Shown here in pieces: positions 13,899 to 59,050 of a stretch of 64,000 nt of DNA. The DNA comes from Eledone cirrhosa. Taxonomy: Eukaryota. Every line of letters starts with the position of its first letter. Positions within the stretch are counted from its first letter, which is position 1. Where the stretch lies: positions 78,120,001-78,184,000 of the forward strand of contig OZ024746.1 in assembly GCA_964016885.1 (NCBI GenBank), given 5' to 3'. The notes under the pieces were generated by a model. That model worked only from the letters and a program-made list of their open reading frames with translations. It was not told where the DNA came from and did no database searches. The translations under genes were made by a program, and so were the position numbers.

Positions 13899-14057
13899 TA
13901 TTGTCCATGCCTGCATGGGTTAGATGGTTGTCATGTTCTGAGGCTAAAGAGGTCAGATAAGCACATCTTGCTCATGCATTCCATTTCAGCCTAGTTTCTA
14001 TCACTGGACACTCATCCTAATGTCATCCACTTTACAATGTGGACTAGGTATATTTAT

Positions 14058-17000
14058 CATGGCACCAGCACTACCACCTTACTGGGTGGAGTGGGAGCTT
14101 CTTACCATGGCACCAGCACTACCACCTTACTGGGTGGAGTGGGAGCTTCTTATCATGGCACCAGCACTACCACCTAACTGGGTGGAGTGGGAGCTTCTTA
14201 CCATGGCACCAGCACTACCACCTTACTGGGTGGAGTGGGAGCTTCTTACCATGGCACCAGCACTACCACCTTACTGAGTGGAGTGGGAGCTTCTTACCAT
14301 GGCACCAGCACTACCACCTTACTGGGTGGAGTGGGAGCTTCTTATCATGGCACCAGCGCTACCACCTTACTGGGTGGAGTGGGAGCTTCTTATCATGACA
14401 CCAGCACTACCACCTTACTGGGTGGAGTGGGAGCTTCTTACCATGGCACCAGCACTACCACCTTACAGGGTGGAGTGGGAGCTTCTTACCATGGCACCAG
14501 CACTACCACCTTACTGGGTGGAGTGGGAGCTTCTTATCATGGCACCAGCACTACCACCTTACTGGGTGGAGTGGGAGCTTCTTATCATGGCACCAGCACT
14601 ACCACCTTACTGGGTGGAGTGGGAACTTCTTACCATGGCACCAGCACTACCACCTTACTGGGTGGAGTGGGAGCTTCTTATCATGGCACCAGCACTACCA
14701 CCTTACTGGGTGGAGTGGGAGCTTCTTATCATGGCACCAGCACTACCACCTTACTGGGTGGAGTGGGAGCTTCTTATCATGGCACCAGCACTACCACCTT
14801 ACTGGGTGGAGTGGGAGCTTCTTACCATGGCACCAGCACTACCACCTTACTGAGTGGGGTGGGAGCTTCTTATCATGGCACCAGCACTACCACCTTACTG
14901 AGTGGAGTGGGAGCTTCTTATCATGGCACCAGCACTACCACCTTACTGAGTGGAGTGGGAGCAAATCATGGCACCAGCACTACCACCTTACTGGGTGGAG
15001 TGGGAGCTTCTTACAATGGCACCAGCACTACCACCTTACTGGGTGGAGTGGGAGCTTCTTATCATGGCACCAGCACTACCACCTTACTGGGTGGAGTGGG
15101 AGCTTCTTATCATGGCACCAGCACTACCACCTTACTGGGTGGAGTGGGAGCTTCTTACCATGGCACCAGCACTACCACCTTACTGGGTGGAGTGGGAGCT
15201 TCTTACCATGGCACCAGCACTACCACCTTACTGGGTGGAGTGGGAGCTTCTTATCATGGCACCAGCACTACCACCTTACTGGGTGGAGTGGGAGCTTCTT
15301 ACCATGGCACCAGCACTTCCACCTTACTGGGTGGAGTGGGAGCTTCTTACCATGGCACCAGCACTACCACCTAACTGGGTGGAGTGGGAGCTTCTTATCA
15401 TGGCACCAGCACTACCACCTTACTGGGTGGAGTGGGAGCTTCTTACCATGGCACCAGCACTACCACCTTACTGGGTGGAGTGGGAGTTTCTTATCATGGC
15501 ACCAGCACTACCACCTTACTGGGTGGAGTGGGAGCTTCTTATCATGGCACCAGCACTACCACCTTACTGAGTGGAGTGGGAGTTTCTTATCATGGCACCA
15601 GCACTACCACCTTACTGGGTGGAGTGGGAGCTTCTTATCATGGCACCAGCACTACCACCTTACTGGGTGGAGTGGGAGCTTCTTATCATGGCACCAGCAC
15701 TACCACCTTACTGGGTGGAGTGGGAGCTTCTTATCATGGCACCAGCACTACCACCTTACTGAGTGGAGTGGGAGCTTATCATGGCACCAGCGCTACCACC
15801 TTACTGAGTGGAGTGGGAGTTTCTTATCATGGCACCAGCACTACCACCTTACTGGGTGGAGTGGGATCTTCTTATGGCAACAGCACTGCCACCTTACTGA
15901 GTGGAGTGGGAGCTTCTTATCATGACACCAGCGCTACCTCCTTACTGAGTGGAGTGGGAGTTTCTTATCATGGCACCAGCACTACCACCTTACTGGGTGG
16001 AGTGGGAGCTTCTTATCATGGCACCAGCACTACCACCTTACTGGGTGGAGTGGGAGCTTCTTATCATGGCACCAGCACTACCACCTTACTGAGTGGAGTG
16101 GGAGCTTCTTATCATGGCACCAGCACTACCACCTTACTGGGTGGAGTGGGAGCTTCTTACCATGGCACCAGCACTACCACCTTACTGGGTGGAGTGGGAG
16201 CTTCTTACCATGGCACCAGCACTACCACCTTACTGGGTGGAGTGGGAGCTTCTTACCATGGCACCAGCGCTACCTCCTTACTGGGTGGAGTGGGAGCTTC
16301 TTATCATGGCACCAGCGCTACCTCCTTACTGAGTGGAGTGGGAGCTTCTTATCATGGCACCAGCACTACCACCTTACTGGGTGGAGTGGGAGCTTCTTAC
16401 CATGGCACCAGCACTACCACCTTACTGGGTGGAGTGGGAGCTTCTTACCATGGCACCAGCACTACCACCTTACTGGGTGGAGTGGGAGCTTCTTATCATG
16501 GCACCAGCACTACCACCTTACTTGGTGGAGTGGGAGCTTCTTACCATGGCACCAGCACTACCACCTTACTGGGTGGAGTGGGAGCTTCTTATCATGGCAC
16601 CAGCGCTACCTCCTTACTGAGTGGAGTGGGAGTTTCTTATCATGGCACCAGCACTACCACCTTACTGGGTGGAGTGGGAGCTTCTTATCATGGCACCAGC
16701 ACTACCACCTTACTGGGTGGAGTGGGAGCTTCTTATCATGGCACCAGCACTACCACCTTACTGGGTGGAGTGGGAGCTTCTTACCATGGCACCAGCACTA
16801 CCACCTTACTGGGTGGAGTGGGAGCTTCTTACCATGGCACCAGCACTACCACCTTACTGGGTGGAGTGGGAGCTTCTTACCATGGCACCAGCACTACCAC
16901 CTAACTGGGTGGAGTGGGAGCTTCTTATCATGGCACCAGCACTACCACCTTACTGGGTGGAGTGGGAGCTTCTTACCATGGCACCAGCACTACCACCTTA

Positions 17001-17139
17001 CTGGGTGGAGTGGGAGCTTCTTACCATGGCACCAGCACTACCACCTAACTGGGTGGAGTGGGAGCTTCTTATCATGGCACCAGCACTACCACCTTACTGA
17101 GTGGAGTGGGAGCTTCTTACCATGGCACCAGCACTACCA
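14058..17139. repeat. 48-bp tandem array, about 64 copies
   Basis: Unit CATGGCACCAGCACTACCACCTTACTGGGTGGAGTGGGAGCTTCTTA(T/C). Stops or indels occur in the + strand frames shown. Confidence 0.98.
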
Positions 17140-17763
17140 ATTTACAACAAAACTAGTGTGTTACTCGTCTTCCTTGGCCAAACGAGGAAAGCCAGTTATA
17201 AGAATAGGTGTGTAAGATGAGAAGCTAGGGGGGGAAGCTACATGGTTCTGTGCTTAAGTAGTTCGCATCACAGCCACATGGCTTCAGGTTCAGTCCTCTT
17301 AGGCAAAGCTTGAGTTGACCAATGCCTTTTGTAATTTGGTATATGATGACTGTGTAGAAGCCTGTCATGTATTTGTCTGTTCAAACCTCTCTGTTTACAT
17401 TTACTATTTGTTTATGTCCTCTAACTTTGCAGTTCAACAGAGAGATCGATAAAATAAGGACCAGGATTGTACAAAATAATTACTGGGCTCTATATGATCA
17501 AGGCAGTGCTCCAGCATGACCACACTTTAATGACTGAATAAAAGGAAACATATAGGTAGATAGTCTGATTGTTTTGCAGTGAGAAAGATAGAAAGATAAC
17601 CAGATAGATAGATAGACTAATTCATAAACTACGTAAATTGTTGAATATAAGGGCAGACAAGTAAATAGATTGATAAGTAGGTTTACAAATAGAAATATAG
17701 GTGAGTAAAGAAAAGTGTGGGTGTTTATGTGTGTGTGTGTGTATATATATACACATATATATA

Positions 17764-34966: not shown

Positions 34967-35453
34967 TGGAGTATTCTTTACTGTCATCATCATCATCATC
35001 ATCATCATCATCAGCAACAGCATCATCATCACCATCACCACCATCATCATCAACATCACCGTTCACCATCATCACCATCATCATCATCAACATCACTGCC
35101 ATCGTCATCACCACCATCACCACCACCACCACCACCACCGCCACCATCGCCATCATCACCACCACCACCATCATCGTCATCATCACCACCACCACCACCA
35201 TCACCACCACCACCACCATCATCATCATCTGCTGTGGCCTGGTTGGTGCACACACAGAAATTTTGGCTCGAAAGAACAAACAAGTTAAATCATCACCATC
35301 ACCATCACGATCACCATCACCATCATCATCATCATCATCATCACTGTCATCATATGCTTCTTTCTTATGTTGGCATGGGTTGAACAGGTTAAGGTTTGAG
35401 TCAGCTGGTGTTTGGAGTTAGATGGAAGAACCAGATTGATTGAGAGTGATGGT

Positions 35454-35566
<113 letters not shown>

Positions 35567-35569
35567 TAT

Positions 35570-35790
35570 GTAGTTGACGACTGAGAGAAAAGAGTACTCA
35601 ATACCGAAGTAGAGTTTAAACATTCATTTTTATTAAAGGTAAATAATCAGTCTTGTTACTCTGGAGTTTCACCTGCTTATCGTGGGGTGGGGGTGGGTGG
35701 GGGAGGATGTCTGTCTTGTCTGATGACCCTGTGATAAACAGGCGAAACTCCAGAGTAACAAGACTCACTATTTAGCCTTAATAAAATGAA
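35570..35790. mobile_element. Penelope-like terminal fragment with imperfect inverted arms
   Basis: Arms at 35623-35681 and 35733-35790, GTACTCAATAC at 35594, and AATAAA after the ribozyme motif. Flanked by TA/CA repeats. Confidence 0.65.
35713..35764 (+). ncRNA. Minimal type I hammerhead ribozyme
   Basis: GTCTTGT (stem I) - CTGATGA - C - CCTGT-GATAA-ACAGG (stem II) - C - GAAA - CTC-CA-GAG (stem III) - TA^ - ACAAGAC (stem I'). Stem I is 7 perfect bp; the 10.1:11.1 pair is C:C instead of G:C. Confidence 0.75.
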
Positions 35791-44979: not shown

Positions 44980-45530
44980 CTTTAATTTAATATTTACATG
45001 ATGCTGTAAAAACTGCTCCCACAGTGGGAGAAAACAAGTCCTTTTGGCTGGGATAGGGAATTTAAAAAATACAAATTGTTATGAATCAATCAGGAATAGT
45101 TGGTCGGTTCTGATGACCTTTTAAGGTTCTTCCAGATCTGTAAATTTGATGTAGTTGATACAAATTCTGAAGAACATCTGCATTTGATGTCTGCAAGGAT
45201 ATCGTAGACTGAAATTTAAAAAAAAATATTTTATTCTAAATGGCTTACAATTAACTTGTTGGTGATTATATTTCTAATGAAATACATTCTATTTCCAGCA
45301 ATTAGAGAAGAATTTTGAGGGATTTATTAAAATTATTAAACACATTTTTTTGTTTTTTGTGGGTGATGATGTTGGAATCATGTATTAGTGCCATTCTTTT
45401 GTTCTTTTGCCCGCTAGTCAACTAATATTTAAAATTTCCTTATTGCTGGCAACATATGTAAATAAGCTGTTATTATTATATTTTCTGAATTGGTGGATTG
45501 GCAGTATCGGTAGAAGGTCGGATGCCATGC

Positions 45531-45780
45531 CTGTTTCCAAAGCCAGAATTTCTTCTCTAGTTTTTCCACAGATTTGGTTATTAGAATCAGGTGTTCCCAT
45601 TGGCAACCTGTCTTAATCTCTTTTGTTATGGCCTGCAGAACTATGATAAACAGTAGTAGGCTGAGGACGGAGCCCTGATGAACATCTACTTGCACATTGA
45701 ATTCATCACTAAACTCATTGTCTACTCTCACCTTACTAATGACTCCTCTGTACATGGCTTGCACTACTCTTACAAGCTAT
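45531..45780 (-). mobile_element. RTE LINE reverse-transcriptase fragment
   Basis: QAMYRGVISKVRVDNEFSDEFNVQVDVHQGSVLSLLLFIIVLQAI contains the QGxxLSP motif. The catalytic YADD segment is missing. Confidence 0.9.
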
Positions 45781-57372: not shown

Positions 57373-57672
57373 CACCCATTTAATATCTATTTTTCATGAT
57401 CACATGGATTAGGCAGGTTGCCATGTTTTGATGTTTGACTGGTTTCTATGGCTGGATGCCCTTCCTAATGCCAACCACTTTACATAATATACTGGGAGCA
57501 TTTTATTGTGGCACCAGCACTACCAACACCATTACAAGGTGGACTGGATGGTTGATTTTTTGTTTTTGTTTTAATTGTGACACCACCTCATCTACCTTAC
57601 TGAATCGCCTGTGTGCCTTTCATTAGGCACCAGCAGTACTGCTTTACAGTGCTAACTGGGGGCTCTTTGTTG

Positions 57673-58660
57673 TAGCACCTGCACTACCACTTTACAGAAT
57701 AGGTTTGGTGCATTTTATCATAGCACCAGCACTACCACTTTACAGAATAGGCTTGGTGCATTTTATCATAGCACCAGCACTACCACTTTACGGAATAGGT
57801 TTGGTGCATTTTATCATAGCACCAGCACTACCACTTTACAGAATAGGCTTGGTGCATTTTATCATAGCACCAGCACTACCACTTTACAGAATAGGCTTGG
57901 TGCATTTTATCATAGCACCTGCACTACCACTTTACAGAATAGGCTTGGTGCATTTTATCATAGCACCAGCACTACCACTTTACAGAATAGGCTTGGTGCA
58001 TTTTATCATAGCACCAGCACTACCACTTTACGGAATAGGTTTGGTGCATTTTATCATAGCACCAGCACTACCACTTTACAGAATAGGCTTGGTGCATTTT
58101 ATCATAGCACCAGCACTACCACTTTACAGAATAGGCTTGGTGCATTTTATCATAGCACCTGCACTACCACTTTACAGAATAGGCTTGGTGCATTTTATCA
58201 TAGCACCAGCACTACCACTTTACAGAATAGGCTTGGTGCATTTTATCATAGCACCTGCACTACCACTTTACAGAATAGGCTTGGTGCATTTTATCATAGC
58301 ACCAGCACTACCACTTTACAGAATAGGCTTGGTGCATTTTATCATAGCACCTGCACTACCACTTTACAGAATAGGCTTGGTGCATTTTATCATAGCACCA
58401 GCACTACCACTTTACAGAATAGGCTTGGTGCATTTTATCATAGCACCAGCACTACCACTTTACAGAATAGGCTTGGTGCATTTTATCATAGCACCAGCAC
58501 TACCACTTTACAGAATAGGCTTGGTGCATTTTATCATAGCACCTGCACTACCACTTTACAGAATAGGCTTGGTGCATTTTATCATAGCACCAGCACTACC
58601 ACTTTACAGAATAGGCTTGGTGCATTTTATCATAGCACCAGCACTACCACTTTACAGAGT
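57673..58660. repeat. 48-bp tandem array, about 20 copies
   Basis: Unit CATAGCACCAGCACTACCACTTTACAGAATAGGCTTGGTGCATTTTAT. Confidence 0.98.
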
Positions 58661-59050
58661 GGTCTGAGTCTGAATGGTTCCTCGTGGTGGTATAGGTGTT
58701 ACTGTTGGCAGTGATGATGGTTATGATAAGTGTAGTGGTGATGGCGATTATATTAGTAATAATTATGATGGTGTACGGTGGTCTTGGTGGGGATGACGGT
58801 AGTTGTATGGTGGGGGATGGTGTTGGTATTGTTGGTGGTGGTAATGGGTGTAGCTGTGATGGTAATTATGATGATGATGATGATGGTGGTGGTGGTGATG
58901 CTTGTTGTGTTATTGGTGATGATGGTGGTGGTGGTTGTCGTGATGATGATGATTTATCTTGTGGTCAGCATTCACAGCTAACTTTGGCAATATCCTGCAT
59001 TTCAACCATATTATTGAGTTTTAAAGATGCACTAGTTATTAATAGTTTTC

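What the first reader, a model, noticed from the sequence alone, without database searches (positions are those of the whole stretch)
35713..35764. Nearly complete minimal hammerhead ribozyme, with an antisense copy of its 3' half just upstream
Seen: all three stems and the catalytic core (CUGAUGA, GAAA, GUA^ with cleavage predicted after 35757), and AATAAA about 22 nt downstream of that site. Stem III is very short with a near-palindromic CTCCAGAG. Established: Penelope-like elements carry minimal type I hammerheads in their pseudo-LTRs, often active as dimers. Also seen: 35623-35681 is an inverted copy of the ribozyme's 3' half. Inference: a read-through + strand transcript could either self-cleave or be locked inactive by the upstream arm, so this is a potential folding switch inside a pre-mRNA.
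Basis: partly seen in the sequence, partly recalled or inferred. Interest (0 to 1): 0.72.

Follow-up and report, generated by a model that had tools for sequence, protein, structure and literature searches.

The report
Back-to-back Penelope retrotransposon stump with hammerhead
The hammerhead-shaped RNA motif and its mirror-image neighbour are both real, but they are the two halves of one old insertion of an abundant Penelope-type jumping gene, and the mirror half is predicted to keep the motif permanently shut, so this is likely an ordinary insertion scar rather than a gene-control switch.

Summary
The motif is real: three stems, CUGAUGA, GAAA, GUA^ after 35757. It is the end (pLTR) of a decayed Hydra-clade Penelope-like element with an estimated 4,000 or more arms in this genome. 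The 'antisense arm' is longer than reported (35567-35688). It is the inverted, tail-bearing second half seen at about two thirds of sampled copies, a published PLE layout.

C35727 is the family norm (C in 137 of 154 arms), not a lesion; published Hydra-clade hammerheads often have U-U there. With the arm present, the hammerhead fold is predicted about 39 kcal/mol uphill, so it is an off state, not a switch. No host transcript was shown. Copies decay without compensatory changes.

Family-level extras: copy 5' ends pile up at an initiator-like site with a TATA-like motif at -30 and an excess of extra G, and 96 of 100 copies run across the predicted cut site. The arms are therefore likely two cDNAs of capped, uncut element RNA, joined head to head. 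This scan noted the same kind of insertion before on other DNA. New member of a known kind; low interest.

The parts
35567..35688 (-). Inverted arm: 5'-truncated pLTR copy (family positions q66-q188) that has lost CUGAUGA and carries about 55 nt of the 3' tail
   Evidence: 7 differences to the family majority in 61 sites
35567..35622 (-). Tail, present on this arm only; by analogy the stretch between two reverse-transcription start sites
   Evidence: PMC11167929
35689..35713 (.). G-rich filler between the two 5' ends; origin not resolved
   Evidence: single-copy depth over 35686-35707
35714..35790 (+). Forward arm: pLTR copy q54-q130, without promoter and without tail; identical to the family majority at 77 of 77 sites
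35713..35764 (+). Type I hammerhead motif with C10.1-C11.1 mismatch and near-palindromic stem III; predicted cut 35757/35758
35727..35727 (+). Position 10.1 = C, the family state
   Evidence: C in 137 of 154 arms; 85 of first 100 rows; 84 of first 100 rows
35780..35785 (+). AATAAA just before the short 3' end of the family
35449..35566 (.). (CT)n(TA)n(CA)n microsatellite at the left flank, likely the insertion target; CA-rich sequence also follows 35790; no target-site duplication discernible
   Evidence: 40 of 50 arm ends abut a dinucleotide repeat

Best explanation
35567-35790 is one old, promoterless insertion of a Hydra-clade Penelope-like retrotransposon, made of two short copies of the element's hammerhead-bearing end set head to head; it likely arose when reverse transcription was primed at both cut strands of a microsatellite target and the two cDNAs were joined, and any read-through RNA is predicted to fold into a long hairpin that keeps the hammerhead shut. 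Shown: family membership, head-to-head layout with one-sided tail, linkage to broken RT/GIY-YIG pieces with Hydra motifs, decay of copies. Inferred: the template was capped element RNA starting at the A of TTAGTT just 5' of stem I. One cDNA started at the short end (about q133), the other at the tail end (about q201), and both ran across the uncut ribozyme towards the RNA 5' end. In the source element the hammerhead would have worked, if at all, as a slow dimer.
For: 1608 first-look candidates, 40 scored; 700 exact matches of a 20-nt piece, about 4,000 arms estimated. Head-to-head partner at 18 of 29 and 18 of 26 pattern-sampled loci (3 loci occur in both sets), with exactly one tail in 12 of 18 and 16 of 18. 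Family end on the same strand downstream of PLE ORF pieces at L048, L208, L211, L212, L219; those pieces match a long RT/GIY-YIG ORF at E 6e-14 and 5e-25 and show CxCX5C, CxxC and CxH. The layout is published. Hammerhead fold with the arm: ensemble -45 against -84 kcal/mol. 96 of the first 100 rows cross the cut site (counted by eye). 13 of 16 arms that reach q57 stop at q52-57. TATTTA(T/C)A in 15 of 30 long arms, 12 of them at -30; G before the start A in 10 of 22 arms. PLE protein extends both strands from two internal starts and uses uncut RNA in vitro.
Against: The two arms here differ unevenly from the family majority (0 of 77 against 7 of 61, Fisher p 0.003), which could mean two templates or two events. 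About five perfect copies are expected by chance among 1608 and three were seen, so the perfect arm alone needs no selection. No intact source element was found: all ORF pieces seen are broken, and only 4 of 18 extended endonuclease loci showed the family end within about 3 kb. Pfam gave no PLE domain above cut-off. The extra-G count is small, partly ambiguous through microhomology, and was tested after I noticed it. Shared differences between arms are three times the shuffled level (29 shared; p 0.004), which common subfamily origin explains but gene conversion would too. Arkhipova 2013 explains such palindromes by self-priming instead.
Confidence: 0.85

Rival explanations
1. The arm and the hammerhead form a selected folding switch in a host pre-mRNA that toggles self-cleavage.
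For: This copy's core is intact and equals the family majority at 77 of 77 sites; the hairpin is very stable (z -9).
Against: The two states are about 39 kcal/mol apart and the arm pairs co-transcriptionally (mean pairing 0.89 when the cut site emerges). Even alone the monomer fold is about 0.1% of the ensemble. The same layout occurs at most sampled copies. No compensatory change in the stems. No host exon among 86 frames scanned.
Confidence: 0.03
2. The inverted layout arose by self-priming or fold-back synthesis on one template rather than by two separately primed cDNAs.
For: Proposed for PLE palindromes in PMC3846280; slight excess of differences shared between arms.
Against: One arm ends at the short site and the other at the tail site in 28 of 36 pairs, so neither is a plain copy of the other. 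Both 5' ends lie at or downstream of the same wall, and many junctions carry filler. Only 29 of about 240 differences per side are shared.
Confidence: 0.2
3. Two independent insertions of different subfamilies landed next to each other.
For: Uneven divergence of the two arms and a 25-nt filler between them.
Against: The geometry (5' ends facing, one tail) matches the family rule; similar asymmetry occurs in other pairs such as L009 and L145.
Confidence: 0.07
4. The locus has no ribozyme role but matters as a double-stranded RNA substrate (A-to-I editing or small RNAs) if it is transcribed.
For: A hairpin of about 80 bp per arm would form from either strand. That such hairpins are ADAR substrates is recalled knowledge.
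Against: Transcription of the locus was not shown. It would be a by-product shared by thousands of copies.
Confidence: 0.25

Closest known systems
Insertion units of endonuclease-positive Penelope-like elements (Arkhipova 2013, PMC3846280; Craig 2021, PMC8557442)
   Same: Head-to-head inverted 5'-truncated pLTR, tail on one arm only, microsatellite target, TATA plus initiator-like motifs in the pLTR.
   Different: No ORF between the arms; the whole insertion is 224 bp; the family tail is about 68 nt rather than 30-40; 5' ends pile up at one site.
Hydra clade of PLEs and their hammerheads (Craig 2021, section 11 and File S2 rows)
   Same: CxCX5C linker, CxxC and CxH around the conserved E and N, (TA)n insertion; stem III ACTC-loop-GAGT as in Hydra-1_aJap and Hydra-2_aMil; pyrimidine mismatch at 10.1/11.1 (U-U in Hydra-1_aJap, Hydra-1_cRog and Penelope-1 to -6, -8, -9_HM).
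   Different: C-C instead of U-U or G-C. Not the listed Hydra-1_oBim motif; this core/stem II string was not found in the text-held supplement.
Minimal type I hammerheads of metazoan PLEs (Cervera and De la Pena 2014, PMC4209133)
   Same: Core, short palindromic stem III, predicted dimer, mostly solo copies, pairs on opposite strands.
   Different: Lacks the highly conserved G10.1-C11.1 pair and the extra nucleotide between 9 and 10.1.
Poseidon PAc of Anolis (Frangieh 2024, PMC11167929)
   Same: Two reverse-transcription start sites bounding the tail; insertion from uncut RNA.
   Different: There shown in vitro for another clade; here inferred from genomic copy ends.
Non-LTR retrozymes of animals (bioRxiv 10.64898/2026.07.22.740005)
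   Same: Non-coding, type I hammerhead, PLE-derived.
   Different: Retrozymes are tandem head-to-tail repeats; this is a single head-to-head pair in which only one arm keeps the core.

Membership tests
Hammerhead ribozyme (type I) | CUGANGA and GAAA core with NUH triplet | tested here: met
Hammerhead ribozyme (type I) | Three stems closing the core | tested here: met
   Stem I 7 bp, stem II 5 bp, stem III up to 4 bp; as a monomer about 0.1% of the ensemble, as a dimer the predicted minimum
Hammerhead ribozyme (type I) | G10.1-C11.1 pair | tested here: not met
   C-C here and in 92 of 159 arms, C-U in 43; U-U is a published tolerated variant, C-C was not found in the papers read
Hammerhead ribozyme (type I) | Rfam model score above gathering threshold | tested here: not met
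   12 bits against 48.5, cut-off match; nothing
Hammerhead ribozyme (type I) | Covariation of stems | tested here: inconclusive
   0-1 compensatory cells per pair within the family, 5 at 15.2-16.2, as expected of dead copies of few sources; an older subfamily changes stem II length and keeps pairing
Hammerhead ribozyme (type I) | Self-cleavage | not testable with these tools
   Indirect only: 4 of 100 copies start at the cut site
EN+ Penelope-like element insertion | pLTR joined to an RT plus C-terminal GIY-YIG ORF | tested here: met
   At family level, L048, L208, L211, L212, L219; absent from the window copy itself
EN+ Penelope-like element insertion | Inverted 5'-truncated copy with tail at one end | tested here: met
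EN+ Penelope-like element insertion | Target-site duplication | tested here: inconclusive
   Flanks are microsatellite; PMC8557442 notes the same difficulty
Hydra clade | CxCX5C linker; CxxC and CxH flanking E and N | tested here: met
   L208, L212 pieces against section 11
Hydra clade | (TA)n insertion preference | tested here: met
   40 of 50 arm ends abut a dinucleotide repeat; TA, CA and TG were counted together, with no background control
Hydra clade | RWK and DKT motifs; placement on an RT tree | not tested
   No N-terminal part of this family's ORF linked to the hammerhead was recovered; no tree built
Non-LTR retrozyme | Two or more tandem units with complete hammerheads | tested here: not met
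   One complete motif in the window; partner inverted and coreless
Ribozyme-based folding switch | Two folds of similar energy | tested here: not met
   About 39 kcal/mol gap
Ribozyme-based folding switch | Host transcript on the + strand | tested here: inconclusive
   No Pfam-recognised exon among 86 frames of 45 aa or more; short exons would be missed

The most novel reading that the evidence does not exclude
These stumps record the PLE integration mechanism directly. Each is two strong-stop-like cDNAs, primed at the two target strands from the two internal start sites, copied across an uncut C-C-mismatch hammerhead up to the cap of an RNA that starts at the first base of stem I, and joined 5' end to 5' end. 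The genome would then hold thousands of in vivo read-outs of where PLE transcription starts and of how seldom the ribozyme cuts the template.
Probability: 0.5. Interest if true: 0.5.

Novelty: new member of a known kind. Interest (0 to 1): 0.25.

Why it matters
The locus itself matters little: it is one of thousands of decayed stumps. The family statistics bear on two open points in PLE biology, how the inverted ends form and whether the hammerhead cuts the transposition template. They favour two-ended priming on uncut, capped RNA and give natural C-C, C-U, U-U and G-C variants for a cleavage assay. It is also a caution that intact-looking hammerheads with an antisense neighbour in such genomes are expected insertion products.

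Tried and rejected
Rfam scans gave no hammerhead call. The run search returned no RNA holder listed, which says nothing about expression. The three runs laid are contigs of one sample of unknown kind, possibly the source of the assembly, so they served only as a survey of family variants. Pfam found no host exon among 86 frames and no PLE domain above cut-off in five ORF pieces (one weak RVT_1 match, E 3e-4).

The search for an intact source element in 20 extended loci found only broken pieces. A candidate pLTR intron (donor at the GUA triplet or at 11.1, acceptor in the tail) was rejected as the cause of the 5' wall: truncated copies share no upstream exon, and neither of the 2 split arms found joins at those sites. 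'G10.1 lost in this copy' was rejected; 18 genomic copies do carry G there, and the 10 inspected share no obvious other variant by eye.

The lower change rate in the core (5.3%) than in the flank (8.2%) was not taken as selection, because the copies were fetched by similarity to the core. My first clade guess, Neptune (recalled), was dropped for Hydra. Lunse 2017 is not held and was not read; it may list comparable variants. Scan look-ups near this place and by sequence returned nothing.

Full report
Observation. The inverted copy is longer than reported, 35567-35688, and includes a 3' extension that the forward copy lacks. Rfam does not call the motif.

It is a repeat. The window lies in a 3.0-Gb genome; that it is an octopus rests on earlier scan notes and was not tested. 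A 93-base query gave 1608 candidates, of which 40 were scored; 17 of the 39 other scored places had a second match on the opposite strand. Exact patterns gave 248, 253, 321 and 700 matches, each with 0 for the reversed control. From the 700 I estimate about 4,000 arms, a lower bound. About 6,500 contigs per run lay on the stretch in three runs of one sample. Arms differ from the column majority by about 7%.

Parent element. I number the family end on a natural copy (L058): C3 = q60, cut q97/98, short end about q133, tail end about q201. Longer copies continue upstream. In L048 the end lies about 500 bases downstream of a frame that matches the C-terminus of a 713-residue RT/GIY-YIG ORF (41% of 68 residues, E 6e-14). 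L033 carries an RT-thumb piece (54% of 80, E 5e-25). Of 18 extended endonuclease loci, 4 showed the family end on the same strand within about 3 kb; the 3' UTR is shared with further loci. The linked pieces show CxCX5C, CxxC and CxH, the Hydra-clade marks of PMC8557442 section 11. The Hydra lead came from an earlier scan note. All ORF pieces seen are broken.

The antisense arm is the family's normal layout. In two pattern-drawn samples, 18 of 29 and 18 of 26 loci have a head-to-head partner (3 loci are in both samples); exactly one arm has the tail in 12 of 18 and 16 of 18. Similarity-drawn samples gave 23 of 29 and 21 of 29, but only 7 of 28 for copies chosen for long upstream sequence. Of 74 arms, 27 end at the short site, 23 at the tail site and 24 elsewhere; 40 of the 50 abut a dinucleotide repeat. 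An inverted 5'-truncated copy with a one-sided tail is described in PMC8557442 (passages) and PMC3846280 (passages). Opposite-strand hammerhead pairs are noted in PMC4209133 (parts 1-2 of 4 read).

Position 10.1. C stands at 10.1 in 137 of 154 arms, 85 of the first 100 rows and 84 of the first 100 (both counted by eye). No other letter reached 10% there. Eighteen genomic copies have G. File S2 of PMC8557442 (rows seen) lists U-U at this pair in many Hydra-clade hammerheads and G-C in Hydra-2_aMil. PMC3088659 (passages) reports U10.1-U11.1 as a natural variant and the most active mismatch. An older subfamily and a 21,489-match sister family here have U-U. C-C is thus a variant of a clade trait; its activity is unknown.

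Decay. The core is intact in 65 of 119 arms that span it; G12 is A in 27 of 186 through CpG decay; compensatory changes are 0-1 per pair except 5 at 15.2-16.2 (sample biased toward core matches). In 59 pairs the arms share 29 of 239 and 248 differences, three times the shuffled level (p 0.004), and their divergences are uncorrelated. The forward arm here is perfect at 77 sites, but about five such copies are expected by chance and three were seen. The inverted arm has 7 differences in 61 sites (p 0.003 for the contrast); this asymmetry is not fully explained.

Not a switch. Alone, the hammerhead fold is about 0.1% of the ensemble; two copies fold to a double hammerhead (-32.6 kcal/mol against 2 x -14.6). 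With the arm the ensemble is -84 and the forced hammerhead -45 kcal/mol, and the arm captures the 3' half as it emerges (hairpin z -9). The forward arm starts at q54 and lacks the upstream promoter-like motifs, and the inverted arm lacks CUGAUGA, so no dimer partner exists in cis. A host transcript was not shown: 86 complex frames had no Pfam match above cut-off.

Mechanism (inferred). 5' ends hit a wall. With an anchor 3' of the ribozyme, 13 of the 16 arms that reach q57 stop at q52-57; with an anchor at q56, 26 of 30 stop at q51-56. q51 is the A of TTAGTT, which fits the initiator consensus (recalled). TATTTA(T/C)A lies upstream in 15 of 30 long arms, 12 of them at -30. Of 32 arms that stop at q51, 10 were set aside because the partner arm explains the preceding base; 10 of the other 22 have G there against 32 of 224 flank bases (p 0.006 against 0.2). 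In the sister family 5 of the first 100 rows stop at the same A and all 5 have G (by eye; 3 of 6 among loci on disk). Untemplated G is attributed to copying the cap (PMC3287187 passages). Penelope has an internal promoter with an initiator (PMC2377424 passages).

Only 4 of 100 rows start at the predicted cut, and stem I microhomology can explain some. Templates were therefore mostly uncut, as in PMC11167929 (passages and second half of the main text), where the protein also extends both strands from two starts that bound the tail. The simplest model is two cDNAs primed at the two target ends and joined head to head. PMC3846280 prefers self-priming. In my search, none of the listed PLE papers contains 'twin priming'; nine searches of open literature cannot show absence from print.

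Other papers seen: PMC6765202, PMC13282606 and PMC11300833 (passages) and bioRxiv 10.64898/2026.07.22.740005 (part 1 of 5; supplements closed). Lunse 2017 was not available and may bear on the mismatch. Earlier scan notes describe the same kind of insertion in this and other genomes; they are leads, not support.

Verdict. Observation confirmed; Penelope reading supported; switch not supported. New member of a known kind, interest 0.25. The family-level mechanism is the only part beyond the ordinary.

Noticed in passing
L200:4138-4200 (+); also L083, L088, L090: A younger sister PLE family (21,489 exact matches of a 20-nt piece) ends in a hammerhead-like motif with CAGAAGA (U4 to A), U-U at 10.1/11.1, a 3-bp stem II and a longer stem III; long open ORFs of 611-745 aa remain.
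   Followed up: partly
window 35755-35760 (+) and 35578-35600 (-): The GUA triplet overlaps a donor-like GTAACA about 45 nt from the inferred start, and the tail holds a branch-like motif, pyrimidine tract and CAG; this resembles Penelope's 75-bp intron at +46. No spliced copy was found among fetched loci.
   Followed up: partly
L241-L250: 18 genomic copies of the family carry G at 10.1, giving a natural G-C pair; possible controls for a cleavage assay.
   Followed up: partly
L007:1096-1200, L072:136-190: Older subfamily with an 18-nt stem II region (6-bp stem) and U-U or U-C at 10.1/11.1.
   Followed up: partly
window 45432-45776 (-): Frame resembling by eye the LINE reverse-transcriptase fragments seen in L014 and L034; no Pfam match.
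   Followed up: no
window 13950-17200 and 57630-58700: Long tandem arrays of a unit of about 48 bases that keep open frames, apparently built from pieces of a common dispersed repeat.
   Followed up: no
window 35689-35713: G-rich filler between the arms ends in a short duplication (TGTCTG) of the forward arm's start; origin unresolved.
   Followed up: no
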